Part shown: in pieces, positions 10,129 to 49,150 of the stretch
Numbering within the stretch: position 1 is the stretch's first letter
How the letters are laid out: the number at the start of each line of letters is the position of its first letter
Source of the DNA: Nemertoderma westbladi
Lineage: Eukaryota; Animalia; Xenacoelomorpha
Direction: 5' to 3'
NCBI GenBank assembly: GCA_032718475.1
Contig: JAUCBJ010002254.1
Coordinates: 1 to 51,112, forward strand
Length of the DNA: 51,112 nt
Notes under the pieces: generated by a model
Databases searched by the model: none
What the model saw: only the letters and a program-made list of their open reading frames with translations
What the model was told of the DNA's origin: nothing
Program-made: the position numbers and the translations under genes

Positions 10129-11628
10129 CTCCTACAACTACTAGGATCGTCATGCTGTATTGCAGGTGCATTTTTAAGAATGCTGTTATCGACAATGTTA
10201 GACCGCCACAACTCCCTACTCACAATGGGATTATCCGCATTTTCAAGGCCAGTGTCCTTTAGGAGGCGTCTCAATAAAGTCATGGGCTATCCACCATGCT
10301 AATTCACTCCATGAGGCTGCCAAAACACAAGATTATGCACTGGCTCATGGCACATGGACTCCATCGGACCTTAAGTTTCCGATTAATTCTCGGTGACTTC
10401 CAAATCCTGGAAAGCCTATTCAAGGCTGCCCATGCCTTTCACTTACGTATTCGAATGTCCTCACCTGACTTCCGGATCCATGATCCCAGGTAACAGAAGT
10501 CGTCCACATGCTCAAGCATACCATCCTTTGAGCTTATGCTCATCCGATCAGAGACTTGCTGAGGACTTTCAAAGTTAACTGTCAGAATGTTGGTCTTTCT
10601 GGAGTTAATAAAAAGACCAACACTAGAAGCAGCATGTTCTAATGAGCTGAGGAGCCGTTGGGCTCCCTCTAGTGATTCTGAGAGTACTCCTAAGTCATCA
10701 GCAAAGTCTAGATCAGTTAGGTACTTGGCAGGATTTCCTCGACTTTTGGAGGCAGTGGGTGGAGTTACCATCACCCCATCATCATTTTGATGATCTAAGG
10801 ACATGTGTAGAACATAGTCAACCACAATTATGAACAAGAATGGTGCAAGTGTGTCTCCCTGGAGGACGCCCCATAACACTTCAAATAGTTCTGTGTCACC
10901 GTCAACAGTAAAGACAAATGTTGCCGAACCATCGTATACTGATCTGATTGTTGCAATAATTTCACCAGTAATCCCATATAATGAAAGTATGCTGAACATA
11001 CGTGAGCGAGAGACTGAATCAAAGGCCTTGAAGAAGTCAACAAAGATAACAGCCAGATGCCTGTCTTTATTTTTTGATAACTCTTCAATTATCCTTCTAA
11101 GTGCCAAAATTGGCTCCATGGTCCCACGACCTTTACGGAACCCATTCTGATTTCCACAGAGCAGTCTCTCAATAGGATCCCTGATGCGATTTAATAGAAT
11201 TCTATTGTATAGCTTTGCAGCAATCGAGATCAATGAGATTCCCCGAAAAGAACCATAGAGTGTTAGGTTGCCCTTCTTGGGAACTGGCACCAACTAGGTT
11301 GCCCTCCAGGATCACCTTAGGAAACTTCTTTTAGCCAGTCTTCCAGAACATGAGAAGTGGCAACGGATGATGCGGTTAGAGATTTGGTCTATTTTGTCCA
11401 ATGCTGCATGTGCAGTTGGATTCATCAATAAACCAATTCCACCATTGCCACTATCATCTGCTGTCGCGAGGGCGAGTCGCCAACCGCCCCCCATGTCCTT
11501 AATCAGATCCTCATCAGTTTGTCCAAGCTTGAATTCCCACTGCGCTAAGAGAAAGCTAATCTGCCAAGGCAGTCAGCTCACCTTGTCGCATTGGGGACAC
11601 GAATGTTGTGTTAACTGAGGCTAGTCTG
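10129..11628 (-). mobile_element. RTE-type LINE, copy 2 (internally deleted: endonuclease fragment plus RT), with 33-bp TSD
   Basis: RT motifs VPVPKKG, RGISL, QNGFRKGR, FVDFFKAFDSV, QGDTLAP, DFADD. An APE fragment (GGIGLLM...ISNRII) lies at 11312-11494 and the tail GATCCTAGTAGT is present. Identical 33-bp direct repeats at 10096-10128 and 11629-11661. Confidence 0.95.
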
Positions 11629-12369: not shown

Positions 12370-14540
12370 TTCAGAGTGATTTTTTATGTCCTTTTATTTG
12401 ACTTTTTTGTCCTCCTTTTTTTACGAATTGTGCACAATGACTTTTGTTGTCCCTTTAATGACTTTTGTTGTCCTTTAATGACTTTTTATGCCAAAACATT
12501 CAAAATTTGTTGATTTCGGGTCTGTCGGACAGTTGGTTTCACTATGCCTGTGCCAAAACATTCAAAATTCCATGATTTATAGACTATGAGATAGATTTCC
12601 ATATGCGCCTGTGGTAAAAGACTCTAAATTTAATAGTTTGTGGTTGTTGTCGATAATCGATTACCACATGACGTAGCAAAACACTCATTTTATAGCCAAA
12701 AACAATTACCAATTGATGGAAAGGAGCAGGTTAAGGCCGGATTTTCTAACCAAAACAATAAACAGTCACTTTACCAAATGAAGGAAAGGAGCAGGTTACA
12801 GAGGCTAGCCTTTCTAACCAAAACAATAAACGGTCACTTTACCAAATCAGGGAAAGGAGCAGGTTACAGAGGCGGGATTTTCTAACCAAAACAATAAACA
12901 ATCACTTTACCAAATGAAGGAAAGGAGCAGGTTACATAGATGGTCTTTTCTAACCAAAACAATAAATGATCACTTAACTAATTGAGGGAAAGGAGCAGGT
13001 TACAGAGGCGGGATTTTCTAACCAAAACAATAAACGATCACTTAACTAATTGAGGGAAAGGAGCAGGTTATAGAGGCGGGATTTTCTAACCAAAACAATA
13101 AACAGTCACTTTACTAAATGAAGGAAAGGAGCAGGTTACAGAGGCGGGCCTTTCTAACCAAAACAATAAACGGTCACTTTACCAAATCAGGGAAAGGAGC
13201 AGGTTACAGAGACGCGATTTTCTAACCAAAACAATAAACGATCATTTAACTAATTGAGGGAAAGGAGCAGGTTACAGAGTCGGGATTTTCTAACCAAAAC
13301 AATAAACGATCATTTAACTAATTGAGGGAAAGGGGCAGGTTATAGAGGCGGGATTTTCTAACCAAAACAATAAACAGTCACTTTACTAAATGAAGGAAAG
13401 GAGCAGGTTACAGAGGCGGGCCTTTCTAACCAAAACAATAAACAATCACTTTACCAAATGAAGGAAAGGAGCAGGTTACATAGATGGTCTTTTCTAACCA
13501 AAACAATAAATGATCACTTAACTAATTGAGGGAAAGGAGCAGGTTACAGAGGCGGGATTTTCTAACCAAAACAATAAACGATCACTTAACTAATTGAGGG
13601 AAAGGAGCAGGTTATAGAGGCGGGATTTTCTAACCAAAACAATAAACAGTCACTTTACTAAATGAAGGAAAGGAGCAGGTTACAGAGGCGGGCCTTTCTA
13701 ACCAAAACAATAAACGGTCACTTTACCAAATCAGGGAAAGGAGCAGGTTACAGAGACGCGATTTTCTAACCAAAACAATAAACGATCATTTAACTAATTG
13801 AGGGAAAGGAGCAGGTTACAGAGTCGGGATTTTCTAACCAAAACAATAAACGATCATTTAACTAATTGAGGGAAAGGGGCAGGTTACAGAGTCGGGATTT
13901 TCTAACCAAAACAATAAACAGTCACTTTACTAAATGAAGGAAAGGAGCAGGTTACAGAGGCGGGCCTTTCTAACCAAAACAATAAACGGTCACTTTACCA
14001 ATTCAGGGAAAGGAGCGGGTTACAGAGGCGGCATTTTCTAACCAAAACAATAAACTCTGTCATGAACATAACAATAAACTATGTCATGAACATTAGAGGG
14101 AATGGGACAGCTTAAAGAGACAGCATCATTGATATACATTTCAAATTACATAAATTCAATTAAATTATATTTCAAATAAAATTAATACAATTTCTTCACC
14201 TGTCAAATTAAATCAATACAATTGAATTTCTTGCTAAATTAAATAAGGTAGGCCTACCATTACCGTATTTAAATGGTAGGCTACACAGTAGGCCTACAGC
14301 AGTACCGGTGCCGGTACCGGTACTAAAATACCTAAAATACCTGCTATATACCTACATCTGTACATACAATGCAGCAATACTGCAAAATAGTGCTCTATTA
14401 CTAATACCGGTACTGATAGCCTGAGATAACAGCAGTAGAGAAACCGGTAGCATGGAACCTAACGGTAAATTTCTGAAGGACATAAAAAGTAAAAAAAAGG
14501 ACATCATGAGTGATTTAAACGGACAATAAAATTTATTGCG
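12370..14540. mobile_element. Possible decayed DNA transposon/foldback element enclosing the first 68-bp array
   Basis: T-rich ...TGTCC motifs at 12380-12490 are mirrored by GGACA-A-rich motifs at 14477-14530 (imperfect inverted match of about 28 bp). Termini and TSD were not resolved. Confidence 0.35.
12690..14056. repeat. 68-bp tandem repeat (about 20 copies) with an 8-mer (544-bp) higher-order duplication
   Basis: Unit GGAAAGGAGCAGGTTACAGAGGCGGGATTTTCTAACCAAAACAATAAAC... with anchors at 12786, 12854 and 12922. The rare variant TAGATGGTC occurs at 12937 and 13481. Confidence 0.97.
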
Positions 14541-15228: not shown

Positions 15229-17050
15229 GTTGGGCGAGCGACGAAAGTAAGCGAGCTTAGCATACAGTTACCACTAACTCAATCGGTGTGTCTGTTGTGG
15301 GGCGAGCGACGAAAGTAAGCGAGTTTAGCATACAGGTACCTCTAACTCAATCGGTGTGTCAGTGGAGCGAGCGACGAAAGTAAGCGAGTTTAGCATACAG
15401 GTACCACTAACTCAATCGGTGTGTCAGTGGAGCGAGCGACGAAAGTAAGCGAGTTTAGCATACAGGTACCTCTAACTCAATCGGTGTGTCAGTGGAGCGA
15501 GCGACGAAAGTAAGCGAGTTTAGCATACAGGTACCTCTAACTCAATCGGTGTGTCAGTGGAGCGAGCGACGAAAGTAAGCGAGTTTAGCATACAGGTACC
15601 ACTAACTCAATCGGTGTGTCTGTTGTTGGGCGAGCGACGAAAGTAAGCGAGCTTAGCATACAGGTACCTCTAACTCAATCGGTGTGTCAGTGGAGCGAGC
15701 GACGAAAGTAAGCGAGTTTAGCATACAGGTACCACTAACTCAATCGGTGTGTCTGTTGTTGGGCGAGCGACGAAAGTAAGCGAGCTTAGCATACAGGTAC
15801 CTCTAACTCAATCGGTGTGTCTGTTGTGGGGCGAGCGACGAAAGTAAGCGAGCTTAGCATACAGGTACCACTAACTCAATCGGTGTGTCTGTTGTTGGGC
15901 GAGCGACGAAAGTAAGCGAGCTTAGCATACAGGTACCTCTAACTCAATCGGTGTGTCTGTTGTGGGGCGAGCGACGAAAGTAAGCGAGCTTAGCATACAG
16001 GTACCACTAACTCAATCGGTGTGTCTGTTGTGGAGCGAGCGACGAAAGTAAGCGAGTTTAGCATACAGGTACCACTAACTCAATCGGTGTGTCTGTTGTG
16101 GGGCGAGCGATGGAAGTAAGCGAGTTTAGCATACAGGTACCACTAACTCAATCGGTGTGTCTGTTGTGGGGCGAGCGATGGAAGTAAGCGAGCTTAGCAT
16201 ACAGGTACCACTAACTCAATCGGTGTGTCTGTTGTGGAGTGAGCGACGAAAGTAAGCGAGTTTAGCATACAGGTACCACTAACTCAATTGGTGTGTCTGT
16301 TGTGGGGCGAGCGATGGAAGTAAGCGAGTTTAGCATACAGGTACCACTAACTCAATCGGTGTGTCTGTTGTGGGGCGAGCGATGGAAGTAAGCGAGCTTA
16401 GCATACAGGTACCACTAACTCAATCGGTGTGTCTGTTGTGGGGCGAGCGACGGAAGTAAGCGAGTTTAGCATACAGGTACCACTAACTCAATCGGTGTGT
16501 CTGTTGTGGGGCGAGCGATGGAAGTAAGCGAGCTTAGCATACAGGTACCACTAACTCAATCGGTGTGTCTGTTGTGGGGCGAGCGATGGAAGTAAGCGAG
16601 CTTAGCATACAGGTACCACTAACTCAATCGGTGTGTCTGTGGGGAGAGTGCTGAAAGTAAGCGAGCTTAGCATACAGGTACCACTAACTCAATCGGTGTG
16701 TCTGTTGTGGGGCGAGCGACGGAAGTAAGCGAGTTTAGCATACAGGTACCACTAACTCAATCGGTGTGTCTGTTGTGGGGCGAGCGATGGAAGTAAGCGA
16801 GCTTAGCATACAGGTACCACTAACTCAATCGGTGTGTCTGTTGTGGGGCGAGCGACGGAAGTAAGCGAGTTTAGCATACAGGTACCACTAACTCAATCGG
16901 TGTGTCTGTTGTGGGGCGAGCGATGGAAGTAAGCGAGCTTAGCATACAGGTACCACTAACTCAATCGGTGTGTCTGTTGTTGGGCGAGCGACGAAAGTAA
17001 GCGAGCTTAGCATACAGACAGGTACCACTAACTCAATCGGTGTGTCTGTT
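15229..17050. repeat. 68-bp (65-bp variant) tandem repeat, about 27 copies
   Basis: Unit GGGCGAGCGACGAAAGTAAGCGAGCTTAGCATACAGGTACCACTAACTCAATCGGTGTGTCTGTTGT(G/T). Period is 68 (15841 to 15909) or 65 (15361 to 15426). Confidence 0.97.
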
Positions 17051-18614: not shown

Positions 18615-19950
18615 ATTGGGATCCATAATCCCAGGTAGGAGAAGTCATCCAATTACACCTAAACTAAGGCTATGCTAGTAAGCTTAGTAAGCTAACCTTA
18701 GAGATTATGGTTGCATATTTAAATATTCCCTGAGGACTGTTGAAGTGAACTGTCAAAATTTTGGTCTTGGAATTAGCAAATATATCAATTCTAATTAAGC
18801 ACTATGTCTTATGCCTGTTCCAATGAGATGGGGAGCTGTTGGGCTCCCTCTAATGATTCTGAGAGTACCACTAAGTTATCAGCAAAAGTCTAGATCAGTT
18901 AGGTACTTGGCAGGATTTCCTCGACTTCAGGAGCCAGTAGGTGGAGTTACCATCACCCCATCATCATTATGATGATCTAAGTCAACCACAATTGAATAAG
19001 AATGGTGCTAGTGTGTCACCCTGGAAAACTCCCCTAACACAATGGATCTGTGTCACCATCAACAGTAGACACAAATGTTGTTGAACCATCGTATACTGAT
19101 CTGATTGGTGCAATAATTTCATCAGGAATCCCATATAATGAAAGTATGCTGAACACACGTGAGCGAGAGACTGAATCAAAGGCCTTGAAGAAGTCAACAA
19201 AGATAACAGCCATATGACAGTCTTTCTTTTTTGATAACTCTTCAATTATCCTTATAAGTGCCAAAATGGGCTCCATGGTCCCACGACCTTTACGGAACCC
19301 ATTCTGATTTCCACGGAGCAGTCTCTCAATGGGATCCCTGATGCGATTTAATAGAATTCTATTATATAGCTTTGCACCAATCGGGATCAACGAGATTCCA
19401 CGAAGAGATCCATAGAGTGTTGGGTTGCCCTTCTTGGGAACTGGCACCAACTTATTTGTTTTAATTTCTTGTGGGACGCTCTTTGTACAAGTCTATATAA
19501 TAGGGTAAATGAGCTCCACAGGGGGGGGGGGGGGGGGGGGCATTTACTTCACTGGCACGATTGGTCTTAATGATCTTTGCAGCAGCAGCCTTGACTTCAG
19601 CAACGGAGATATAACCAATTGGTACATCCGGGAGTACAGATGTAAAGTGGTTCGTTGTTGGTGGTTCCCAGTCAGCAAGTTGGTAGATTTCCATACCTGA
19701 GCTGATTGCCTGTGGTCATCGGCATCATTGATGGCTGTTCAGTATGTGAGTTGTTTGATCCTGGTGTCTTTCGCCTTGAGTGTGCCATGCTCACTTATGA
19801 AAATCCACCACCAACGGGGAGAATACCTATCTATAATGATATCATCATGCAAGAGAATTCCTTTCCCCAGCATCACAAAGAATATTAAACCCAACATTAT
19901 CATGGCATTGGTGATCCTACTGCGCTTGTTGGATCAACCATCACACTTCT
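18615..19950 (-). mobile_element. RTE-type LINE, copy 3 (decayed RT region)
   Basis: 18830-19450 is nearly colinear with copy 2 (VPVPKKGNP, QNGFRKGRG, FVDFFKAFDSV, GVFQGDTLAPFLF). Outer limits are approximate. Confidence 0.88.
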
Positions 19951-20536
19951 TCCTTATCATGGCATGAGTGAACTTGATTCTCTTGATATATACCTTCTTC
20001 AAATTCTAGACTTGGGACTCCTTAAATTTACTGGTGGTGTATGTAAAATAATATTCTAATGACAGGTGGTGATGGTGATAATAATTAGTATCAGTCTATG
20101 ATGGGAATCAGAGCCAGAATATGGATCTCTCACTTGACCAAGCCATTTTATCTTTGAATTCGATGTTGGGGTTGGGCTTCCAATAACTTAGAGTCATTTA
20201 TTTCAAGTAGATTTGAAATTGCCCGATAAATGGTTGTCAATTTCCTTTAGATTGTATACCTGCTTTACTTCCTTAGTGTCGGATTGTTGTCTATTACCTC
20301 CTGTCATCAAGCAAAAATGTGTAAACCAAATTTGTAAATAATCTGGCACTGGAGGATTGCACATTCTTGCTAGAACAAAACTGAGCTTAGATCTCCACAA
20401 TTGGGGCCTGTGTGGGACTGTGGGTATACATTTTTCCAGACATCTTCAGAAAGTGAGTCAGCCATTTCTAAATTTAACGTGGTTGCTGTACAGACACCCA
20501 AAGGCTTATGTGACCCGCCAAGTGACAATTAAATCT

Positions 20537-20605
20537 TAGTTGCGTTCGACCTCTCGCTCTTTTTACAATCTTACAGTACTATCTAACATCTTACAGTAAT
20601 TTTTA
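20537..20605 (+). repeat. 69-bp direct repeat, left copy (probable TSD)
   Basis: TAGTTGCGTTCGACC...CAGTAATTTTTA is identical to 30440-30508. Confidence 0.9.
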
Positions 20606-20888
20606 TTCAGGTCAGGTCAGGTATTCTAGGTCATTGATCAAGAAAACTTGCCACCTCCATGCAGCATAAAGGAGTTGCCACCTGTAGCTGCATAGACCCT
20701 CTTACTAGGGCAAATCTGGTCCTGTAACTAGGACTGTAAAAGCTTTTGGGGATATAACTGGCCTTTTCCATTTGTAATCCAGTTTTCCCCCATTCGCTCA
20801 AATCCTCTAAACTGTTGCTTCTAGTGGCACAATCTGCCCGCTGGTTGGCTGATTTGCTGTACGTATGGCCTCTTTGTTCTGTTCGATT

Positions 20889-20920
20889 AACCAATCAGAA
20901 CAATGATCGACCAATCAGAG
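20889..20920 (+). promoter_or_regulatory. Two CCAAT boxes (RACCAATCAG), 20 bp apart; possible internal promoter
   Basis: CCAATCAG at 20891 and 20911. Motif match only. Confidence 0.3.
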
Positions 20921-22189
20921 CGATTTAGCCTTGTGTTGGCTATGGGCTGCGAAGGCTAGGGAGGTTTGACATTTAGACATTCGTGGAATCTGTGGAATAT
21001 GGAACTCTGCCAATGAGAGCTTTTCCTCTTTGTGTTGAAAGCTACCTGCAACAGCTCACAGGGTTCAGTGTGTTGGTTTTCCTGATGCCATGAACATCGG
21101 CTATGGAATTATTCTGAATTATTCCAACATTAGAACGGCTTTAATTATAAGAACACATAACTGTTACCGGTACAGCGGTACGAGACACTAAGAACACATA
21201 ACGGTACGGTACGTATTGCACATTATTTACTGCTATTTGCTGTTTGTTATTAATTGTATCGGTTGTTTACATATTGTTATTTGGAGAATAACGATAAACG
21301 ATCAGAAACCCCGATCTTCTTGATACACTAAGGTTAGAGAGACCGGCTACATATAGCAATTGCGACTTATATTATCGTGGTTTGTAGTGAATTGAATGCT
21401 ATTTTATAGGCCCTACAAATGTCGGTTGCTATTCTCTTTATATATGATTAAAATCAGTGACTATCGGCAATTCAGTGTGCAGCGGTGTGCAATAGTCTGT
21501 ATGTGCTTGTCCGCGTAACAAAGCATCTCCTAAAGAATGCGCCTTATGTGTAACTTATAATCCATTCCGTTGTGTTTAGTGTAAGCCATAGCTCTGTTTA
21601 TATAGATAGAGCGCCACGTCCTAAAGGAACTGCTAATATTTCCCGAAAGTGAATAATATTTGTCAGAGATTATATATTAACGATCAATCGAATAGTACGG
21701 TAGGCCTGCACCGCAATCAAATTAAAGCATCCGAATCCAGTCTCCCGGGTATATCCAGCGGGTGAATGGTCGCGCATAGACTGGCTTCGGCTAATGTTGG
21801 ATTTATTTGTGTCAAATACTTGTCATAGGCTAAAGTCGATTTATAACCTAGAAGACATATAGATTTGGCGGGTTAAACTGCCAAAGGTCTTAAAAGCGCG
21901 AACAGTAACAGTTATAGCTTCTTGATTGCGGCGTAAGCAATCAAGTTGATAGTACCGGTCGACCGGTAACCAGTAGGCCTGACTGCCTGATCACCCGGAC
22001 CGGTACTTACAACAGTACAAGTACAGCAGTATTATTCGATTTGATAATTATATACCTGTAGGCCTTAATAATTAATCAGGGACTGCAGCCCTGGTTTTTT
22101 ATTGAGATTTTACTTATTTCTGTCAGTTTTATTTATTTGTAGGCTAATATTGAGCAGAAGGCGTGTAAGCCTGCTCAGATTGTACAGAC

Positions 22190-22768
22190 AATTTGTAGGC
22201 TAGATTGTTGTCTGACTGTTGTTAAGTCTGAACGGATTGCAGTGTGTGTAGAGCATCTGTCCGATAAAGTGCTAGTTAGGAACGTAGGGGCTTCAAGTGC
22301 TGTGAGGTAAACCCCCTTTGAAAGAATAAGTCGTACTACTAGGTTAGAACGCATACTAACTAATCATTTCGGAGTCTGCATATACTGTAGTTTATTTAGG
22401 CTTGATAGTAGTCTGCCATCGTTTGGTCTGTACTTTGTTTGTGTAGTCTGTACAGGTAGCGTATAATTCTTATTTAGATAATTTGTAGGCTGGATAGTTG
22501 TCTGGCTGTTGTTAGGTCTGAGGAAATTTCGGTGTGTGTAGAGTGTATGTCCGATAAAGTGCCAGTTGGGAACGTAGGGGCTTCCAGTGCTGTGAGGTAA
22601 ACCCCCTCTGAAAGAATAAGTCGTACTACTAGGTTAGAACGCATACTAACTAACCATTTCGGAGTCTGCATATACCGTAGTTTGTTTAGGCTTGATAGTA
22701 GTCTGTCAGTATTTGGTCTGCATTTTGTTTGAGTAGTCTGTACGCGTAGCGTAATATTTATTATTCAG
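22190..22768 (+). repeat. Diverged 290-bp tandem duplication in the leader of the gag element
   Basis: AATTTGTAGGCT starts both units (22190 and 22480). The units are colinear with scattered substitutions. Confidence 0.92.
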
Positions 22769-23971
22769 AGTTTATGCGATTATTCGCAACATTCATATCC
22801 CCAAGTTTATTCCTACAGTAATTGTGTTTGTTATACATACCGTTATAGTTAAACTAACCCCGGTACTACATCAGGGCTGCTAGGCGTAGGTAAAGACTGG
22901 AGATTTTGTGCTTTGGTCACTCCGGCAGATACCGTGGTTCTTTTAGCTGTTCAAGTATTTTAACTACTGATTATTTGTTGTATAAGCACTTGTACCTAAT
23001 TTAGGGTTTAGTGTACAGTGCTTTCCGAAGGTGATTAGTGTGTAGGCAGTATATTTGTGTTGTAAAGTGGTTAATAGGCACGTTGGTTCTGGTAGACCGC
23101 GGTAATTAACTTCTAGGTAGGAACACTCCGTGATACATAACGTAGTACTTATAGCGCCACGGCTATAAGTCGTCAGACGGTGGTATTTTTCTATCTGGAC
23201 AACGCAGTATATTTACTACTACTTATTATTTTCAAATACCGTAGTACCCTGTCCGTTGTAATAACCAGATATTCTAACCCTTTGTTAGGCTGGTTAGTAG
23301 ACTTCTTGTAAAATTACCCTAAAAATTCGTACTTGTAATTTTTGTGTTTATTTAGAGATTGTAATCTCACCCCGAATTGTACGTAATTTGTAGTATTAAG
23401 TAACTTAGGTAAATTAGAATTATTTGTTTTAGTGTCCAACAAGTAGCACTTCACTGAGAGCGCACAGCTTCTGTGTAGTGACTCCCCCCCCAGAAATAAT
23501 AACATTTATTTCAAATATTGACAAAAACCCATTAAACGGGTATATATATTATAAATCAACTCAAACCGATTTATAAATAGTAGGCCTGTCATACAACAAT
23601 TAGGTCTAAATATCAGTTGGACTACTGCTTAAATAACGGTAATAAAGTAAGTTAAAGTAACCAAGTAACCCTTAAAATTCAGAAATTCAATTATTCTAAA
23701 ATAATTGACATACCGGTATTTACAATAGGCTTATTATATTTATTTCTATAAATTTTAGGCTGAAATTATACCGGTATTCTGTAATTAATTCTAGTCTGTA
23801 ATAATACTTATATATACTATAAGCATACTGGTATTCTAATATATTATATATATATCACGCTACACTGAGTAGCAGTATCGGTAATTAATTACTAGGCTAA
23901 CAGTTGATACTGAATTACTAAACTTGCTTTAACTGTAATATAGCAGTAGGCATTCAACTGTACAATCAAAC

Positions 23972-26900
23972 ATGGCTGACACAAGGCAAACTCTGTCAGA
24001 TAGTCTCCTAGAAACAACAGTCTGTTTCTCAGATAGGAGTATAGAGAATCCCAGACCGAGGTCTGAGACCCCTCCTACTGTAAGAAAGGCAACCCCTACA
24101 GTAGCTGTGTCAGAACCTAGGTTAGTAGAAGCAATTTCGCAATTTGCGAAGTTAGTGAAGCGCCATAGGTCTATCATAGGCACTCGAGCTCAGGTCAAGC
24201 GGGACCAAGAAGCGGCAGAACAGCAACAACCCGCGAGCCAAGAACTTATTTCTCAACGGCCCGACAGCTCCAGTAGTGAGGATACTGTAGAGCTGACACC
24301 CGAGCGCGGAGCAAAGATGACGGATGTGGTTTATTCGGATCCCCTTCTCATCCTTCTTGCAGCCGTACTCACTAGGTTATTGATTGCGGTGGAAGAACAC
24401 CAGATCGATTGGGCGAGAAGTAAGCGATCGACTAAAGATAGTTATGCGGGATACACAAGGGAAGAACTGAAGTCTATTGTCGAGTCGCAATGGAACTTCC
24501 CCGGACCCGGACTCCCGTTTGATTTATCAGAAGCTGCCTGGGAAGATATACACAGGATGGGAGTAACCAAGGAAACCATCGATCCAGCTGTGTGGAAGAG
24601 GTCCGCAGCCGGATACGTACAGGGATTCGTCAGCTCTATGGAGCGATTAGAAAAACAACTGTTTCAACAACCCCAAGGACCTCAAGAGCAGGGACAGCTG
24701 CTTTATCAAGTTAAAGAAAGAATTCTACGAATCAGGCTAATCTTATCGGCCTTTGAGGAGGCTTCTAAAAGAAGACAAGACACGTCGTTGCAAGTTGCCG
24801 TAAAGACTTGGTTTCAACGGGTGAGCCTCCAGGTGCAAGGAACGACTCAGTGGAAAGCCCAGCTGGATGAGCGCTCAACCCATGGAGAATCAACAGACGC
24901 TACTTTTTCCCAAGTGGAAAGTGAAGCGGCGGCAGAGAAGCCGCATAAGAGGGATGCCATTGACATCTATCTATCGGACTATCAACGTTTTGTAGGAGAT
25001 GAAGAGTTGAGGAGAAGACTAGAGGGGCTTAGCCCTAATAGTGAAGGAGCCCAGCGTGTGTTGGACGCAATCGATGTGGATAGGTTAGCTGCGAACCAAG
25101 CTAAATTCAATGAAAGCATCCGCATCGCTAAGGTTCAAGAAGAACAAGTAAAGAAAAAACGTATAGAAGATAGAAAGACAGCAGCAGCGGCAGTGGCAGC
25201 GGCAGAAGCGGATAGAAAAGCGGCAGAAGCAAAAGCGGCAGCTGCAGCAGCCGAAGCGGAAAGAAAAATAGCAGTGGCAGAAGCAGAACGGAGGGCATCT
25301 GAAGAGACAACCCAACTAGAGTTGGAAAATCTTCAAGAGAGGCAAGACAACTTTAATAAACAGTTAACAGCTAGTAATATGCAGATAATGAATCGATCTA
25401 CTCCCAAAAGACAAGGTTATACATCATCTGAGGAAGGCGATACCACCGATCCTGAAGGCGGAGGAAATCGATCTCGCCTAAGCAGACGTAAAAGAATGTC
25501 CCACCGTCAGAAATTGCCTGATTTGCCCCCAGCTGTTAGAAGGCAACTAAATAACACAAACTTAGGTAGTACAGAACCCACAGACCAAATAATTAAAATA
25601 GAAAGACTCCCTACTATAGTAGATGAGCCTGAAATAATTAGGCCTGTTCTTGAAATCACCCCTTCGATGATAGAGACACCTGTACTCCCAGAACCTACCT
25701 TTAAATTCCCTTTACACAGCACCAAATTATCTGTGCCTAGAGGAACAGCCCCTGAAACAGTGTCGGTCCTGGACTCCGAGCGAAATATAAAGGATATATC
25801 GCCCGTAGTCCCTCGTCTGCCCGCTACGACGTTGGCGGATCCCGCTTCGGCGGTTGATTGGGTAGACGAGAGACGGCGGGGGATGGACATTCTCCTCGGA
25901 GAGATGAAGGAGAATCGAGTGCGCTCCTCCCAACAGGTCCGAGAGTTAGAAGGGACTGTTCAACAGTTAAAGGGAATCGTAAAGGAAAGTAGGTTAGAGT
26001 TGCAAGAAGTGCAGCAAAGTATCGCGCTAGAACGCGATAAATTAGTAAATTTACAAAAGGGTATATCACCATCCTCTGTAACAATATGTCAACCCGTTAG
26101 GTCTGAAGTATCTCATGCGCAAGGTGTGGAGCCTACACGCATCTATACTGCTAGCGAAGTAGAAACTCCTATAGTAAACCCTATTAAGGGTAATTATCAA
26201 CCTGTTGACAATGATATCCCATATAGACTTGATAATAATCCGAGAAATTTATATACCGATAACTCGATATTAAATAACACGATGGCCCAAGAAAGTTTTA
26301 CGCGTCAAATGGCTAGAACCGAAGCCCGTCAAGCGGTAAAGGTGGGAGAAATCGTCAAGTTCAATGGAGATGAGATGAAATGGTTACCTTTTAATGAATA
26401 TTACAAAGATAACATACAGAACTCTGTACTATCTAATGGAGAGAAACTTAGATTCCTCATCGAGTGCTTGGAAGGATCTCCCAAGTTAATGGCGTTAAAG
26501 TTTATTGGACATCCAGACGGATTAAGACAAGTTTGGGATACACTAAACATCAGGTATGGTAATAGGAATAACATAGCTGGGTATTTGTAGGCAAAGTTGG
26601 TAGCGCCCCGAAAGTTTATTAGCAGCGGGATTATAGAGTTTTCCGATGAGATTCAGGAGATCTGCAGACAATTAGATTGGCTAGGTAAGTCTCATGAGTA
26701 TCAGAGTGCTATGGTTATTAGAGCAGTGGCTTCTACTTTACCGAAGGGTGGAGTAGGTACACGCTGGGACAAGAAAGTGTTATATATGATGGAACAACAA
26801 CAACGAGACCCTACCATGGCTGATCTCATGTCATTCTTGGATGGCGAAGTGAAATTACAGCTCATAAAGCAGTCCAGAGAGAAGACACCGGAAAACAAGG

Positions 26901-27721
26901 TAAGTGAGAAACCCGTCTCTAGGAGAAAGGTAACACCAGTGTGTTATACAGACGACGGCGAAAGCCAGACTTCTCAAGGAGAGGATAGCGGGAAAGACAC
27001 TGAAAGATCTTATTATGTCAATAAAACGCCTAAAGAACAGGTAAGTAAATTCAAGTCTCGAACCAATGACAGGAGAGAACAGGTAAGAAAAACTCCTCCT
27101 ACGTCTCCCAAGAGAATCCAGGTGAGAAAGCCCGAAGAAAGAACGAGTGTGCACACTGTTATTCAAAATAAGGTAAGTAACATCAAACCGAAATGTGCGC
27201 TATGTGACGGGCCCCACCGTTTGAATATGTGTGATAAATTCCTAAAGAAATCATTAAAGGATAGACGTGAAGTCATGTGGGATAAGCGGTTGTGTTATAA
27301 TTGCCTCAGACGAGGACACCAACGGCGAACCTGTTACTCCGACGCAAGGTGTGCAAAGTGCGGTGCGAAACATCATATCTTGTTGCACACTGAATTTGAG
27401 CGAAACAACCAGAGTCAGGTAAGTGATTCCGAACTACATGTCCAATTCAGTGATGTGAACGACACTGACCAATATTCTGAGATGGAAGGATTCTATACGG
27501 ACGAATTCTCCGACGAAAACGAATCCTGTTACCTGACAAATACCGCAGTGTATCGAGCACTTACGTATGAAAAGGACACCGACAGCGAGCTCCCCCTAAC
27601 TACTTCGGACAGACAACCATCTTGGAAAGCACCAACTTCCAATGTAGGAATCCGAGAATTTCCTGTAGTACAGTTAAGGGTCCACGGACCTACGGAGTTA
27701 TATAGTGAACGCCCTCCTTGA
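23972..27721 (+). CDS. gag: Bel/Pao-type Gag with a very long N-terminal extension; interrupted by one in-frame TAG (26588-26590)
   Basis: The 872-aa and 374-aa ORFs are in the same frame. A DUF1759-like capsid region (KFNGD..KW..F, EKLRFL..CLEG, L..RYG) spans the stop. Three knuckles, [27 protein letters not shown] and [13 protein letters not shown], match the Bel/Pao pattern. Confidence 0.88.
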
Positions 27722-28622
27722 CTCCGGTAGCACAGGAACATTCATCGACAAAGAACTAGCCGAAGACATCTTTGCTGGACAACCCAAGTTCCGAACTAAG
27801 CTAAACATGTCAGAAATTATGCAGGTTTGGAAATCTACCGTAATAGCGGATTATTATGTAGGCGCGTTGTCCACCCCCCAGGATGAACTAGGAGAACACA
27901 GCATAAGGTCAGTAAAAATGGTAGCGATAAAGAACTTCGCGACCAGCCAAGTGGAACCTTATAACTGGGATGAGGACGATTTCACCCAGCAGCTTGAAAT
28001 ACCTAGATTCAACACCGATTACCCTGGAGTCCAAATACTCATCGGTCAAAATGCGCATGAAGCGCTCGAGACATTGGAGAAACGGCCTGCTCAACCGCAA
28101 CCACTACAAGTCTATGCGGGAAGAACTAGAGTAGGTTGGTACTTTACTGGCCCTTCTCGTAGAACTCTTATGGAAAGATTACCAAAAGAACAGGTATATC
28201 AATTAAGTGAACGGGAAGTGGAGAGCAGTGAAGTTGACGACCCAACTGAGGGAACACCATACTCCTCAGATAATGACGACATCAACCCCAATGTAGATCA
28301 ATGGAGATATTGCCCCGAGACGATCAATCTAGCCGACATCGCCTCCAGAGGAGCAACTCCTCAAGAACTGACAGATACTCCAGACTGGTTAGGTGAACCC
28401 GACTTCCTAAGTAAAGAAGATGAATGGCCTCCCCATCTTAACCCGGCGAAGATTAGACAGGCCAAGGGAGCGGAGAAAGTAACACAACCACTCAATCGCC
28501 CAGCTGGTCGTTTATGTTTACTGGAAAGAGACCGAAAACTGTCCGGAAACTATGGAAGGCAAGATACTCTTCCCACGACCACTTCCCTAATCCAACAAAT
28601 ATCTAGGGACTCCATAACGTAA
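27705..28622 (+). CDS. Aspartic protease fused in frame to short pol remnants (no RT, RNase H core or integrase core)
   Basis: [18 protein letters not shown] and RTRVGW (protease and linker), then QWRY.P...NLADIASRG...WL...DFL...EWP, then [11 protein letters not shown]. It is in the +1 frame relative to gag near 27695. Confidence 0.85.
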
Positions 28623-28630
28623 CAACATAC

Positions 28631-28930
28631 GGAGTGGGTGTGTGACTATATTATTTTATATTTATTTTATTATTTTATATTATGTATGTATTATTATGTA
28701 ATTTTATTATAATCGTTTTCTTTAATTTTATTTAGTAGAATGTTATTTTAGCGATTATTTAGTAGATTAGTGCAATATATATTCGCGTTTATTACTTAAT
28801 TACTTATATATTATATTTAGTGCGACGGCGAGAAATAATTCTTTTTCTCTTTCCTTACTGTCCGTATCATATTATAAATACGTGACTACAGTAAGATAAA
28901 ATATCCGTACTTATTAAAGTACAATAAAGC
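28631..28930 (+). promoter_or_regulatory. Possible relic of PPT and 3' LTR start
   Basis: G-rich GGAGTGGGTG is followed by TGT (28641) just after the stop codon. TATAAATA at 28873 and AATAAA at 28923. No 5' counterpart was seen. Confidence 0.35.
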
Positions 28931-29173
28931 TCCTACTATATTCAAGTATTATTGGTAAAGTAGAGTATTAGGAATGCAAAGTTCAGATCCTCGTGTCTCG
29001 GCTAAACCAAGCTCTGGGTAGACCTTGGAAACGACTTGCCTCTTCTCACTGACATTGCTTCGTGCGATATTGCTCTCATACCGTATATTAAATAATACAT
29101 ATAGTAGCGTGATGTCCCTTTAACAGTAGCGTAAAACGCAAAATAAATCTGTTAAACCCTTTGACCATCTGTA

Positions 29174-29435
29174 ATTCTAGTCGATTAAGATATCGTGGCA
29201 CCCACCGATATACTTGAAAGACAAATTCTAGAATCAGTGGTTAACGTCCCCAGACAAGTTCTGGAATAAACTGGTGCCCATCCTAAATATTAATTATTAA
29301 TATTTACAAAATCTGTCAAATTTTAGATCCTTTAACATTCTAGTCGATTAAGATATCGTAGCACTTACCGATACTCTTAAAAGGACAAATCCCTAGAATC
29401 AAGGATCCCAGTCCCCAGACTTGTTCTGGAATAAA
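29174..29435 (+). repeat. Two copies of a roughly 97-bp hairpin-forming module in the 3' UTR of the gag element
   Basis: 29174-29270 and 29337-29435 share ATTCTAGTCGATTAAGATATCGT...CCGATA...CTAGAATC...GTCCCCAGAC..GTTCTGGAATAAA. Confidence 0.85.
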
Positions 29436-30439
29436 ATTGTGTCTATTTAATATTAAATAATAAAATTACGGGAATAAATTTAAATTCATCTTTTAATGAA
29501 TTTGATAAATTGTTATTTTATACAATTTATAATATTCCCCAAATTCCATTAATTAATAGATCATGGGAGCGGAAATTCACCTCTTAAGTGTATTAGTGTG
29601 CGAGAATCTCCGACATATAGTCAATACCCAATAAAATTAATAAAATCATGTATAGAGAGGATATTGACAATTAAAGAATTACTATTAAATAGCATCCCAG
29701 ATCTGTATGCATGAGAATTACCCTAATTCTACCGCTAGCTTTCCATAATGTCACCATAGTAACAGCCACGCTAGAATTAGAAGTGAGTTTAAAGAACAAT
29801 AAAAAGCTTGCCCATTGAATAGCATACGGAATAAATAGCACACCGCTAGTATCCAAGGATACATAATAACAACGTGACATTCTGGAAGGCACTTGACTAA
29901 CGGACAAATGACCCGAATGTGTGATAGAATGTGTACCATTTGTGACAGTTACGTGGAATTTATGCGTTTGTAGGTGAATGTTACTACTAAGGTGTGTTTA
30001 CAGTAGCGAGTTGCAATTGTGAAAGTAACCCTAACTCTCCAGTAAGAACCTGAAGTATATCTAAGCCTTTGGGACGGACGGTGGAGTGACTTGTGCTGGT
30101 TGTTGTAGTCGTTGTGCAGCTACGACGTTGGCGATAGGCACATCGACGAAAGTACACCAGCGCTGAGGATCTTGCACTGTCCGGGGGCAGAGAGGGGTAG
30201 GCAGCGACGCCCGCTAGCCTAAATATAAACTCATTATAATATTAATAAACTCATATAGCAGATATGGCTGAGTTGATAGAAGATGATCTTGGTATCAGGG
30301 AGCGATATACTATACCTTTACAGGCGTTTGTTGATAGCTTGATACGCGGCGACGCTGGTCCAACTACTACGGAGGACGATGGTCGTTATATCGAACCGCC
30401 GATGTCCCAGGAGCAACTTAATGCCGATCCTAGTAGTAG

Positions 30440-30508
30440 TAGTTGCGTTCGACCTCTCGCTCTTTTTACAATCTTACAGTACTATCTAACATCTTACAGT
30501 AATTTTTA
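30440..30508 (+). repeat. 69-bp direct repeat, right copy (probable TSD)
   Basis: Identical to 20537-20605. Its first bases (TAGT) are continuous with the (TAG)n tail. Confidence 0.9.
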
Positions 30509-30535
30509 CATTATAAAGAGCCAGAATGAGTCCCG

Positions 30536-30982
30536 AGCACTCACGGGCGCATGGGCCGCTCACGGCACATAAGCTGCTCACGGGCACATGGGCTGCTCGC
30601 GGGCACATGGGCTGCTCACGGGCACATGGGGTGCTCACGTGCACATGGGCTTCTCACGGGCACATGGGCTGCTCACGGGCACAGGGGGTGCTCACGGGCA
30701 CATGGGCTGCTCGCTGGCACATGGGCTGCTCGCGGGCACATGGGCTGCTCACGGGCACATGGGCTGCTCACGGGTACATGGGCTGCTCGCGGGCACATGG
30801 TCTGCTCACCTGGTACATCGGCTGCTCACGGGCACATCCGCTGCTCACGGGCACATGGGCTGCTCGCGGGCACATGGTCTGCTCACCTGGTACATCGGTT
30901 TCTCACGGGCACATGGGCTTCTCACGGGCACATGGGCTTCTCACGGGCACATGGGCTGCTCACGGGCACATGGGCTGCTCAC
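30536..30982. repeat. 19-bp GC-rich minisatellite (CACGGGCACATGGGCTGCT)
   Basis: About 23 tandem copies. These explain the three overlapping spurious ORFs. Confidence 0.97.
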
Positions 30983-31461
30983 ACTAAGCAGCTATTCCAC
31001 TAAACCCTTAGGCAGAGGCAATTACCATGAAAATTTAGTGAATAGTACACCATTATTTTTAAATACAAATTTAAGAAAAAACAGTAGACCTATTATTTAA
31101 ACACATGAGCAATTTTTATTAATTGAATAATTAATAAACTGAAATAAATTTAATCGAGAAAATGTGACTCATGGAGGCAGAGAGTGCTCTCTGGCGTATT
31201 TATTATATAATATTGTGCGCTTTATGTAGCTTGAATCTCTATTTACTTTCAGTAGCTAAACGAAAGAGTTAGTGTACGTTCGGTACGTTGTTCCTTAAGA
31301 AAATCCCAAAGGGATTTAGTGAGGGCGATGAGTCAACTCGTATGAATATAATTAAGCCTCTCTCAAACCACCGGCTTGTCACTTTAGTTCCTCTAATGAA
31401 TAGATTTACGAACCGCATAGCCTTCCTTGGGAGTGGTGATCCGATCTATGATGAGAGGAAA

Positions 31462-36141: not shown

Positions 36142-37883
36142 CTCATCACAACAACAATTAAAAATGGCAGTTATTTCATACAGAATCTGCGGCGTTAATT
36201 TATATGCTTTTTAATGTTCCTACCTAACATTAACATGTTCTTCTACTTCTTTACTACTTTATACCTAACAGTTTATATAGACATACATTTGGAAATGTTT
36301 CTACTAGAAAGTTCCATGTTTCATATTCCAAGAGATGCGTGCCAGAACCCACTACAGTGCAACCCACACCCGTGCCGCACAATGTATATAACATTGTACA
36401 GAAGTTTAGTTTACTGGGGAAACAGAATCGACGTAACAAAAATTTCCATATGAAAATTAATAATAAAGAAGTATTAGTAGTAGTAGTAGCTCCCGGAGCG
36501 CTGTATAAATTCAAATCTTTTATAAATCACAAATATAATATAATTTGACAAATTACTGACATATTTACTCCTCGTAAAGACAATGATTGGCATCCCATCA
36601 AAAATATGTAAATATTATATTATGATTCGCCAGTACAGCTTTTACGCATCAACAGCCTTCAAAGCCACCACCTCAAGCTTGCTGAACAATGTTTCCACCA
36701 GCAGTATCAACCAGTACACAACCTTGTGCTGAGACAGCCCGGTGATGGTGAGAATTGTAATCAATTTTCACTACAAAATTTCACTACAATTAACACTACA
36801 AAAATACGTTCCCTCGGGATTCTGATTTAAATTCAATATCATTATTGCCATTATTATCCCCATCCACTTCACTCACTTCAAAACCCCTGCCTTTGCCACC
36901 CAATAATACAACAGCCTTGTCCTTCCCAGTCACCTCTAACCCTGTCCCCATGCCCACCTTGAATCGCCTGGAATTTGTGGGGCTTGCTTAGGGGCGTGGG
37001 TATTTTCCCACAGAGAACAGAGCTTTTGGCCAACCTGCTGCGCTCTAGTGCTTGCGCACTCTGCCAGCTGACTTCTCAGTTCGTCCCAGGACCAACTGCT
37101 TAGCCAGGAGGACAAAATAGCAGTATCTTCCCGGGTTTGACTCCGTCTGTTTACAGTAGTGCTTGCTCACTCTCTCTACACTTAGATGCATTGCGGGGCG
37201 ACCTTTGGTCAAACCTCTGTGTCGTAGGACAAAGTAGCAGCTAACTCTATCTTTGTCCCATTGGTCCCACCCCCATTTGGACACAGATAGTAACCTGGTG
37301 CCATATACCAGTAACACAGTCTCTACTACTCTACTGCCAGGAATGAATTACCTTTCAGATAAGGTGTAATTCCGGGTAATTTCCATTCTCTTGATAATTT
37401 GATTTATTACAGACCATGCCTTATCCTTTGATATTCCAGATCTCCAAACCAAAGATCCTAGTTTACCGAAGTGTTCTACACCACCACCAACAATAAATGA
37501 CTGAACAGCAAACGAATATCATTAGTAAAGTTTAGATATCTTCAAGTGTTCGTGATATGAAGACTTCAATAATTTTCACAGTTAAAGAAATCTTGTTTAA
37601 TTTTGCCAAATGTTTTAACACCTGATATAAATCAGCTAGCGCGGCATATGACCCGTGAGGGAGCCTGAAATATATCGGCTTACTAAATTGGGCTGGTTAT
37701 GTATCATTCGATTGATTTTCGCTATATAATTCCCTAAGATAAATAAAACGATATGTTAGCCAGTTTTCATTAATTATATTATATACAAATGGTTTAATTA
37801 TGTTTATTAGATATTACAGATAAATAAATAATATAATATATATATACAGTAAAAAAGCTCATTTATTATTATTAATATTAAAA

Positions 37884-37918
37884 TACCGAATGCATTTCGC
37901 GTTGGCTCTTCAGCGGTA
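37884..37918 (-). ncRNA. Minimal type I hammerhead ribozyme
   Basis: Minus strand reads TACCG-CTGAAGA-GC-CAAC-GC-GAAA-TGCA-TT-CGGTA. Confidence 0.8.
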
Positions 37919-37946
37919 AAAAGAAGAAGAAGAAAAAAAGAAGTTT

Positions 37947-37981
37947 TACCGCTGAAGAGCCAACGCGAAATGCATTCGGTA
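37947..37981 (+). ncRNA. Minimal type I hammerhead ribozyme (35 nt)
   Basis: TACCG-CTGAAGA-GC-CAAC-GC-GAAA-TGCA-TT-CGGTA: 5-bp stem I, 2-bp stem II, palindromic ATGCAT stem III, predicted cleavage after AUU (37976). Confidence 0.8.
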
Positions 37982-39322
37982 TTTTAATATTAATAATAAT
38001 AAATGAGCTTTTTTACTGTAGATATATATTATATTATTTATTTATCTGTAATATCTAATAAACATAATTAAACCATTTGTATATAATATAATTAATGAAA
38101 ACTGGCTAACATATCGTTTTATTTATCTTATTTCTATCGGATGTCAGCTTAAAGCAAACTACTTCTATATTAATACTAATTCCCTAAGTAATTAGTACTT
38201 AATAGTCCCTAAGTAAGTAATATCTAAGCTCACATACGGGATAGTATTAACAGTTCTGTATCAGATGTTGCGCTCAAGATATCAAACAGGTCTATTTCTT
38301 ATGGTAATTACAACAGATTGTTAACGAGAATCATAGTTTGTCACACCTTTTAGGGGTGTGGTATTATGGAACCGACTGAAATATACTCTGGGACCTGATT
38401 TACTGAGTGGACAATTTTATTTATGAACAAGGAGTTTGGTAGGCTCACGCACGTTGGGGCTATCCAATATCATATATTCTCATGCACACCACTTACTTGA
38501 TTGTGAACTGGGACTGCTAATTTACCGACCACATCTTACCTCTTCCAATATAAATAAAGATAGGTTGCGATATAATGGTAGTTAATATAGCATCATCTCC
38601 ATATCATCACCAAATCAAATGACTATCAAATCTATCAAATACTAACAAATTTAACAAAGACTATCAAATATAATATATAAACAGGTACAGCAGTAACTCA
38701 GTACAATTCAGTGTGTCACGGTGTTTCAGTACTTTGAGGTGATTCGTTACGATTGATTGGTGTCTTACCTGCTTAATCCCTCTCTCACTATCTATTGGCA
38801 ATGGCTTATGGTTAGTAGACCGTTGCCTATATTAGAATGGTTATACACTGCACCAATAAATATGATAAATATGAATACAATAGCTTTAACGTTTAATACA
38901 CAATATGACACAATGAATAGCTTGGGTGGTCATCTGACTTCCAATTTGGTTCCTTTGGCAAGGCTCCCGATTGTAAGTTGACCTTTGGAGATTGGCTTAC
39001 TATCGGGGTGCTAATAGATTTCCCATTTTGGTTATTAACTGCCTTGAGGTGACATATTGGTCTTCTGGTTGATGAAGTGCCTTAGGGATTGCTCCCTTAA
39101 GGGCGCCTAAGGGCGCCTGTAATAACAAATATAAATGTTAAATTTATTTATATATTATTTGTAAAACAATGAAATTGTTTTATACTGTATTCTGTTTGTG
39201 TAGTTAATGTAGATTCGTTATTTTTGTGTTTTACATATCTTTCTGGAACCTTGAATAGTAGAGAATGAATTATATTAGAAGACTCATCGTATGCAACATT
39301 TGATTTCTATAAAAACAAAGCG

Positions 39323-48500: not shown

Positions 48501-49150
48501 CACCATGGACCCAACCCTATCCGATCAACATCACGGCATCCATCCTCGGCACCATGGATCCCAACCCTATCCGATCGGCAACATGGCATCCATCCTCTGC
48601 ACCATGGACCCAACCCTATCCGATCGGCAACATGGCCTCCATCCTCGGCACCATGGCCTCCATCCTCGGCACCATGGCCTCCATCCTCGGCACCATGGAC
48701 CCAACCCAATCCGATCGGCAACATGGCCTCCATCCTCGGCACCATGGACCCAACCCTATCCGATCGGCAACATGGCCTCCATCCTCGGCACCATGGACCC
48801 AACCCTATCCGATCGGCAACATGGCCTCCATCCTCGGCACCATGGCCTCCATCCTCGGCACCATGGCCTCCATCCTCGGCACCATGGACCCAACCCAATC
48901 TGATCTCCAACATAGCCTCCATCCTCAGCACCATGGACCCAACCCTCTCCGATCAGCAACGCGGCCTCCATCCTTGGCACCATGGATCCAACCCTATCCG
49001 ATCAACAACACAACATCCATCCTAGGCACCACGGACCCCAACCCTCTCCGATCGGCAACACGGCCTCCATCATCTGAACCATGGACCCAATGCTATCCGA
49101 TCGGCAACATGGCCTCCATCCTCAGCACCATGGACCCAACCCTATCAGAT
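42555..49150. repeat. Intronic 49-bp satellite (about 130 copies) with higher-order repeats
   Basis: Unit GGCACCATGGACCCAACCCTATCCGATCGGCAACACAGCCTCCATCCTC. Identical ORF translations recur at offsets of 1628 bp (43677/45305, 44122/45750) and 590 bp (46910/47500/48090). Confidence 0.98.

What the first reader, a model, noticed from the sequence alone, without database searches (positions are those of the whole stretch)
27705..28622. pol reduced by two frame-preserving deletions: protease kept; RT, RNase H and integrase lost
Seen: after the protease and linker the ORF jumps directly to the post-RNase H motif (WRY at 28302, [12 protein letters not shown] at 28422). Only about 63 nt later it reaches the integrase-terminal motif [11 protein letters not shown] (28494). 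In the other Bel/Pao element in this window the same two motifs (EWP at 101, NRP at 1309) are about 1.2 kb apart. Both junctions keep the reading frame. Inference: selection kept a translatable Gag-protease polyprotein while the replication enzymes were discarded, as expected if particles are still made but reverse transcription and integration come from elsewhere, or if the gene was domesticated. Two in-frame junctions could also arise by chance (about 1 in 9).
Basis: partly seen in the sequence, partly recalled or inferred. Interest (0 to 1): 0.7.

Follow-up and report, generated by a model that had tools for sequence, protein, structure and literature searches.

The report
Gag-protease-only Bel/Pao retrotransposon family
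This is one broken copy of a very abundant animal jumping-gene family that has lost its copying enzymes but keeps its particle-shell and protease genes in one frame, and it likely spreads by borrowing those enzymes from a rare full-length relative.

Summary
After the protease, one frame runs into the WRY..EWP block (54 aa after the protease GW motif, against a median of 568 in 45 relatives). It then runs into the integrase tail (22 aa, against about 510). About 1,000 codons are gone, and RT, most of RNase H and the integrase core are absent. Corrections: the retained block is likely the last strand and helix of RNase H itself. This copy cannot make Gag-protease, because it has a stop at 26590 and a frame change near 27695. 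Contigs from four studies show that both breaks are private to this copy, while the deleted form is shared by a family of at least hundreds of copies. Differences among copies in the protease are mostly synonymous (15 of 24, 7.0 expected; rough pN/pS 0.25). None of the 12 best-supported indels lies in the ORF. A longer relative about 85% alike sits at or below single-copy depth. Best reading: a semi-autonomous Bel/Pao family mobilised in trans, like plant TR-GAG elements and mouse IAP 1-delta-1. It is not domesticated. No LTR pair was found, and helper activity and expression are untested.

The parts
21468..30418 (+). High-copy block, the part of the family present in this copy. Depth starts rising at about 20730-21470; other copies run on beyond 30418.
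   Evidence: tables 2 and 7: summed contig depth about 3e5-1.6e6 (X1) against about 25-34 in the left flank; loose ends behind 30418-30419 in X4
23972..26590 (+). Gag, first piece: ATG, about 800 aa of unassigned N-terminal region, then the start of DUF1759, ending in a premature stop
   Evidence: Atlas gave only gag-like leads under 0.9
26360..26743 (+). DUF1759 (Bel/Pao Gag capsid-region domain), interrupted by the stop
   Evidence: read with X at the stop: E 3.9e-11, above the curated cut-off
26588..26590 (+). Stop codon private to this copy
   Evidence: table 3: 234,816 of 234,836 depth units in X1, and all depth in X3, X4 and X5, read otherwise here
27194..27388 (+). Triple Cys-His box of Bel/Pao Gag
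   Evidence: pattern as given in PMC554778 (passages)
27688..27701 (+). Frame change between Gag and protease, private to this copy
   Evidence: 5 of 5 listed contigs that span the site differ in length so that one frame is kept
27702..28160 (+). Aspartic protease: LLDSG (Asp at 27720), LIG at 28038, GW at 28134
   Evidence: model pLDDT 74.8, best Foldseek rows are retropepsin-like proteases but all have E > 0.001; 15 of 24 listed differences synonymous
28161..28279 (+). Acidic linker after the protease
   Evidence: 2 of 6 differences synonymous, as expected by chance
28280..28292 (+). Junction 1: about 514 codons missing (RT, connection region, most of RNase H)
   Evidence: loose ends behind 28279 and longer-relative contigs that fit only from 28293
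28293..28438 (+). Retained block VDQWRY..EWP, likely the last strand and helix of RNase H plus the helices that follow
28480..28491 (+). Junction 2: about 488 codons missing (integrase zinc finger and core); other forms of this junction exist among copies
   Evidence: tables 3, 5, 7
28491..28622 (+). Integrase C-terminal tail (NRP..L motif) and stop
   Evidence: motif compared by eye with the element at 1309 and by regex; no Pfam hit for this piece
28631..28642 (+). Purine-rich tract where a PPT is expected, followed by TG
   Evidence: sequence; function inferred from position
28643..28944 (+). Candidate single LTR (TATA-like at 28873, AATAAA at 28923). End not established; no second copy in the window.
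   Evidence: terminal inverted repeat not better than chance (0.67 of shuffles)
30264..30418 (+). Start of a further ATG ORF inside the high-copy block, cut off in this copy; identity unknown
   Evidence: no usable Pfam or Atlas hit
20537..20605 (.). 69-bp perfect direct repeat, left copy (right copy at 30440-30508), enclosing the block
   Evidence: single-copy contigs of X1 and X3 stop at 20605
30440..30508 (.). 69-bp perfect direct repeat, right copy

Best explanation
This is a dead copy of a high-copy Bel/Pao family that has lost RT, most of RNase H and the integrase core but keeps Gag and protease in one frame, and it likely spreads as a semi-autonomous retrotransposon that makes and matures its own particles while borrowing reverse transcriptase and integrase from a rare full-length relative. 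Shown: the anatomy; both deletions shared among copies; very high depth; this copy's stop and frame change being private; a synonymous bias in the protease; low-depth contigs of a longer relative. Inferred: active copies translate a polyprotein of about 1,550 aa; Gag packages the element's own RNA; the protease processes Gag; helper Gag-Pol co-assembles and supplies the enzymes; selection acts on copies that still make the protein, because translation favours their own RNA in cis. The RNase H end and integrase tail are most likely leftovers that keep the frame open to the natural stop next to the PPT. They are probably not working domains.
For: Deletion sizes about 514 and 488 aa; no RT, RNase H body or integrase core in any frame of 20600-30500. 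Junction 1 is bridged by 31 or more letters on both sides in X4 and in X5 (X5 record 29). Junction 2 is bridged in X4 and X3. Depth is continuous over both junctions in all 4 runs from 4 studies, and the rows in X1 are borderline at 28-35 letters. One 209-nt contig in X3 has depth 9,251 against 22-45 for the flank, about 200-400 fold. Stop private; frame change private, 5 of 5 contigs. Synonymous differences: 29 of 57 overall against 17.4 expected (P 8.5e-4); protease 15 of 24 against 7.0 (P 4e-4); differences that set this copy apart from at least 99% of depth, 1 of 7 against 2.4. 0 of the 12 best-supported indels lie in the ORF, which is 52% of the block (P about 2e-3 after allowing for homopolymer runs). 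The two listed indels downstream of the protease are both 3 letters. Longer relative: contigs of 558 and 556 nt in X1 and X3 fit only 28293-28438 (22 other letters, 3 gap letters), with about 290 unlike letters upstream and about 120 downstream, at 0.2-0.7 times flank depth; loose ends behind 28279 in 9 contigs of X1 and one of 255 letters in X5. Precedents in plants and mouse.
Against: No LTR pair, primer-binding site or 4-6 bp target duplication was found in this copy, so retrotransposition of the deleted form is not shown directly. The difference tables show only the 40 best-supported rows of 1,755 and of 326, and 12 indel rows of 210 and of 21. These are no proper dN/dS and may favour old differences, some inherited from before the deletions. 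Gag alone is not significant (8 of 19 against 5.8, P 0.19), nor are the remnants (4 of 8 against 2.8). The remnant departs from positions conserved in relatives (Pro in 95 of 117, Gly in 110 of 117). One of 5 joints in the ORF with known spacer letters is out of frame, and one removes the start region. The unlike letters of the longer contigs were not identified as RT or RNase H, and that relative is only about 85% alike. Summed contig depth is not a copy number and cannot tell dispersed from tandem copies.
Confidence: 0.68

Rival explanations
1. Passenger ORF. The deleted RNA is packaged entirely by helper proteins. The synonymous bias is inherited from autonomous ancestors (several origins, or recombination with them), and the in-frame junctions are luck.
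For: Several forms of junction 2 exist among copies (tables 5 and 7), as expected from repeated origin or recombination. Constraint on Gag and on the remnants is not significant. The junctions were noticed because they are in frame.
Against: The deleted form makes up nearly all depth, yet the stop and frame change of this copy are not shared. 0 of 12 top indels lie in the ORF. A 4.6-kb frame is unlikely to stay open across subfamilies 5-15% apart without selection.
Confidence: 0.15
2. DNA-level amplification. A deleted element was multiplied as part of a large tandem or segmental repeat, not through RNA.
For: No LTR pair; a 69-bp perfect repeat instead of a short target duplication; even depth over 9 kb, including 4 kb of non-coding DNA; the window is rich in satellites.
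Against: DNA duplication does not purge stops or favour synonymous change. The block stops sharply at both ends in this copy, with single-copy flanks.
Confidence: 0.08
3. The fused remnant is functional. The RNase H end and integrase tail are kept because they help recruit helper Pol, or because their RNA carries a cis signal.
For: Both junctions and both listed small indels downstream of the protease keep the frame. The WRY..WP block survived between two deletions, where one deletion could have removed it. The IAP 1-delta-1 fusion acts in cis.
Against: No significant synonymous bias (4 of 8); conserved Pro and Gly are changed; similar short-gap proteins in other animals are single gene models (8 looked up, 7 clusters of one).
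Confidence: 0.07
4. Domesticated host gene.
For: The family is also present under a second species label (X5).
Against: Hundreds of copies; this locus carries a stop and a frame change.
Confidence: 0.02

Closest known systems
Bel/Pao LTR retrotransposons (Belpaoviridae), e.g. Sinbad (PMC554778, passages read)
   Same: Single gag-pol frame, DUF1759, triple Cys-His box, LLDSG plus LIG protease, domain order of what remains.
   Different: RT, connection region, most of RNase H and the integrase core are missing. Gag is unusually long. The closest database proteins are only about 30-37% identical over the protease. The family looks as large as or larger than the largest Bel/Pao families in a 62-genome survey (three above 100 copies, maximum 397; PMC3118150, passages read), though the measures are not comparable.
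Plant TR-GAG and GAG/PROT-only non-autonomous LTR retrotransposons (PMC4350172 abstract; PMC13570524 and PMC5738225 passages)
   Same: Gag, with or without protease, is kept and the enzymes are lost; copies are abundant; mobilised by rarer autonomous partners (proposed in those papers).
   Different: Copia- or Gypsy-derived, in plants, usually under 4 kb for TR-GAG. This one is Bel/Pao-derived, in an animal, over 9 kb, and has two separate pol deletions that leave an in-frame island.
Mouse IAP 1-delta-1 (PMC7411935 and PMC6466679, passages read; the primary paper PMC2413153 is not held)
   Same: An in-frame internal deletion gives a fusion ORF; the deleted form outnumbers new full-length insertions and needs helper proteins in trans.
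   Different: An endogenous retrovirus; it loses part of gag and pol and needs Gag in trans. Here Gag and protease are whole and two deletions remove the enzymes.

Membership tests
Bel/Pao | Triple Cys-His box in Gag | tested here: met
   27194-27388, pattern from PMC554778
Bel/Pao | DUF1759 Gag domain | tested here: met
   E 3.9e-11
Bel/Pao | LLDXG and LIG protease motifs | tested here: met
Bel/Pao | Nearest proteins are Bel/Pao polyproteins | tested here: met
   174 hits with E <= 0.001; 3 of 3 scanned carry Peptidase_A17, as do the 2 hits
Bel/Pao (autonomous) | RT, RNase H and integrase present | tested here: not met
Bel/Pao | Placement on the RT tree, superfamily assignment | not testable with these tools
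   RT is deleted and the sequence of the full-length relative was not obtained
LTR retrotransposon | Pair of LTRs with TG...CA ends and a 4-6 bp target duplication | tested here: inconclusive
   Only one LTR-like stretch; no second copy in the window; the copy is cut at 30418
LTR retrotransposon | Primer-binding site and PPT | tested here: inconclusive
   Purine tract at 28631; one recalled primer-site motif found no convincing site
TR-GAG-like semi-autonomous element (works like) | One ORF with Gag, no RT or integrase | tested here: met
   Met at family level; broken in this copy
TR-GAG-like semi-autonomous element (works like) | Multi-copy family sharing the deleted structure | tested here: met
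TR-GAG (membership) | Plant element under 4 kb with Copia- or Gypsy-like Gag | tested here: not met
   Bel/Pao Gag, block over 9 kb
TR-GAG-like semi-autonomous element (works like) | Mobilised in trans by an autonomous partner | not testable with these tools
   Only indirect: low-depth longer contigs

The most novel reading that the evidence does not exclude
A Bel/Pao lineage in an animal has evolved a semi-autonomous parasite of several hundred or more copies that lives off a helper present in about one copy. It has persisted across a species split, keeps its own Gag and protease under selection, and uses the in-frame RNase H end and integrase tail as a module to capture the helper's Pol. It may also carry an extra ORF of its own.
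Probability: 0.15. Interest if true: 0.72.

Novelty: new variant of a known kind. Interest (0 to 1): 0.46.

Why it matters
Gag-keeping, enzyme-less LTR elements are well known in plants, and in-frame deleted IAPs in mouse. I found no description of such a family for Bel/Pao in my searches. Those searches were limited: 'BEL/Pao' with a slash could not be entered as a term, and Repbase and subscription journals were not covered. If confirmed, it extends the semi-autonomous strategy to the main invertebrate LTR lineage. It would give a clear case where the protease, not only Gag, stays under selection, and show that RT-based surveys can miss what may be the largest Bel/Pao family in a genome.

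Tried and rejected
No host genome is held, so copies could not be counted or aligned. Metagenome scans found nothing: 102 pattern matches, none a relative; 0 matches. Protein searches found no close family member: 2 distant hits of 2,681 candidates, 0 of 853, 4 distant hits of 2,096; the best phmmer hit was E 1.5e-9. Convergent short-gap proteins in other animals (P0050 and others) were rejected as evidence because 7 of 8 are single-member gene models. An LTR end at 28944 by inverted repeat was not better than chance. No Rfam match in 20000-31000. The Atlas gave only leads under 0.9 for Gag and nothing for the ORF at 30264. Expression: no RNA holder listed; X5 is only guessed to be RNA. Foldseek gave no protease match with E <= 0.001. 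VIA-align was busy at every try, so the aligned range of the RNase H match was not seen. Earlier-findings look-ups returned nothing. PMC2413153 is not held. Passages of PMC7642597, PMC3286476, PMC6238403, PMC8556966 and PMC12440569 showed no Gag-protease-only Bel/Pao family; no supplements were read, and they could list such elements. Whether the junctions are splice sites was not tested.

Full report
Observation. The ORF 27678-28622 (314 aa) holds an aspartic protease (LLDSG, LIG, GW), an acidic linker, the block WRY 28302 / NLADIASRG 28326 / EWP 28422 and, 63 nt later, [11 protein letters not shown] 28494. Among 153 held proteins, the GW-to-WRY distance had a median of 568 aa (45 measurable) against 54 here. 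The WP-to-RP distance was about 510 (26 measurable) against 22 (a phmmer version agrees). So about 514 and 488 codons are missing. tblastn with 44 full-length relatives finds no RT, RNase H body or integrase core in any frame of 20600-30500.

What the retained block is. A model of the related protein P0013 (pLDDT 86) matches RNase H structures (E about 1e-4, 129-133 aligned columns). Its conserved acids D191, E235, D265 and D311 span residues 191-311, with WRY on a strand (300-302) and the N-x-A-D motif at the start of a helix (310-315). The window block aligns to that part. It is therefore likely the last strand and helix of RNase H, not a post-RNase H motif. The exact aligned range was not seen because VIA-align was busy, and reading these four acids as the RNase H active site rests on my own knowledge.

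This copy is dead. Gag starts at 23972 and stops at 26590 inside DUF1759 (E 3.9e-11 when read with X). It continues with a triple Cys-His box (27194-27388) and changes frame at about 27690-27700, just before the protease active site.

The family. No genome is held, but 6 public runs from 4 studies hold the stretch, under two species labels. I laid 4 of them. Summed contig depth over 21468-30418 has a median of about 7e5 (X1) and 5e5 (X3), against about 22-45 in the left flank. That sum is not a copy number. One 209-nt contig alone, however, has depth 9,251 in X3, 200-400 times the flank, so there are at least hundreds of copies. Junction 1 is bridged by 31 or more letters on both sides in X4 and X5, and junction 2 in X4 and X3; depth is continuous across both in all four runs. 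The second label may be a sister species or a mixed sample. The stop is private: 234,816 of 234,836 depth units in X1 and all depth in the other three runs read otherwise. The frame change is private too: 5 of 5 listed contigs spanning it keep one frame. Active copies would encode about 1,550 aa.

Selection. The tool lists the 40 best-supported differences of 1,755 and of 326. I scored 57 coding rows, leaving out 2 rows at the breaks, 16 non-coding rows and 5 duplicates. Synonymous: 29 of 57 against 17.4 expected from the kind of change (P 8.5e-4). Protease core: 15 of 24 against 7.0 (P 4e-4, rough pN/pS 0.25). Gag: 8 of 19 against 5.8 (P 0.19). Linker: 2 of 6 against 1.8. Remnants: 4 of 8 against 2.8 (P 0.28). 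Differences that set this copy apart from at least 99% of depth: 1 of 7 against 2.4, as for neutral decay. None of the 12 best-supported indels (of 210) lies in the ORF, which is 52% of the block (P about 2e-3 allowing for homopolymers). Of the 12 rows shown (of 21), 10 concern the private frame change and 2 are 3-letter indels. Of 5 joints in the ORF with known spacer letters, 4 keep the frame by my hand count, but 3 of these lie in a codon-periodic Ala-rich repeat, and one joint in X4 removes the start region. This is a sample biased to well-supported, possibly old differences, not a phylogenetic dN/dS.

A candidate helper. Contigs of 558 nt (X1, depth 17.8) and 556 nt (X3, depth 9.7) fit only 28293-28438 at about 85%. 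They carry about 290 unlike letters upstream, where the RNase H body would lie, and about 120 downstream. Their depth is 0.2-0.7 times the flank. Loose ends leave the window behind 28279 in 9 contigs of X1 and in one 255-letter contig of X5, where full-length relatives pass from linker into RT. These brackets put junction 1 at 28280-28292. What the unlike letters encode was not established. At junction 2 other forms exist: loose ends before 28491 (29 contigs in X1, 5 in X3, 1 in X5) and behind 28480 (4 in X3, 4 in X4, 3 in X5). One X5 contig leaves at 28480 and rejoins at 28538, so that form is longer but still far too short for an integrase.

Element ends. A purine tract at 28631 precedes a TG, a TATA-like site (28873) and AATAAA (28923). 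But 28640-30420 has no second copy in the window, the inverted-repeat end is chance-level, and no primer site was found with one recalled motif. The high-copy block goes on to 30418, includes the start of an unidentified ATG ORF at 30264, and continues in other copies. A perfect 69-bp repeat (20537-20605, 30440-30508) encloses it. This copy is thus cut or rearranged, and retrotransposition of the deleted form is inferred, not shown.

Mechanism. Most likely (0.68) a semi-autonomous family. Its RNA is translated into Gag-protease, packaged in cis, and copied and integrated by enzymes from a rare full-length relative, and the two pol remnants mainly keep the frame open to the natural stop. Rivals: passenger ORF with inherited constraint (0.15), DNA-level amplification (0.08), functional remnant (0.07), domestication (0.02).

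Comparison. What remains meets the Bel/Pao hallmarks in PMC554778 (passages). It works like plant TR-GAG elements (PMC4350172, abstract), the 28 GAG/PROT-only sugar beet families (PMC13570524, passages), barley Sabrina and WHAM (PMC5738225, passages) and mouse IAP 1-delta-1, whose in-frame fusion helps in cis (PMC7411935 and PMC6466679, passages). It is a member of none of these. Searches listed no Gag-protease-only Bel/Pao family; they could not take the slash form of the name and do not cover Repbase. A survey of 62 genomes found only three Bel/Pao families above 100 copies (PMC3118150, passages).

Verdict. Observation confirmed; interpretation right for the family and wrong for this copy and for domestication. 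New variant of a known kind, interest 0.46.

Noticed in passing
window 20537-20605 and 30440-30508: A perfect 69-bp direct repeat encloses the 9.8-kb block, far longer than an LTR-element target duplication. Single-copy contigs of X1 and X3 stop exactly at 20605.
   Followed up: partly
window 30264-30418: An ATG ORF behind a TATA-like stretch lies inside the high-copy block, cut in this copy and continuing in others; no Pfam or Atlas identity. It may be an extra gene of the family, or the copy may be a permuted piece of a tandem pair.
   Followed up: partly
window 23972-26360: About 800 aa precede DUF1759, with an Ala/Glu-rich coiled-coil-like repeat whose length varies in frame among copies.
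   Followed up: partly
window 22186-22478 / 22476-22769 and 29174-29304 / 29337-29467: Tandem duplications (88% and 79% alike) in the non-coding parts of the element.
   Followed up: no
window 1-1488: A second, unrelated Bel/Pao 3' end lacking about 125 aa between the RNase H end and the integrase core, with a frame change; DUF5641 hit.
   Followed up: partly
window 10439-11293 and 19034-19492 (minus strand): Reverse transcriptase fragments (RVT_1), probably non-LTR elements.
   Followed up: no
window 42597-49000, 12598-14189, 15229-17009, 37735-38130: A long 49-bp-unit satellite with strong C skew, 68-bp-unit arrays, and a 187-bp near-perfect inverted repeat.
   Followed up: no
window 20606-20733: A short stretch just inside the left 69-bp repeat falls in a high-depth bin and may be a separate repeat.
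   Followed up: no
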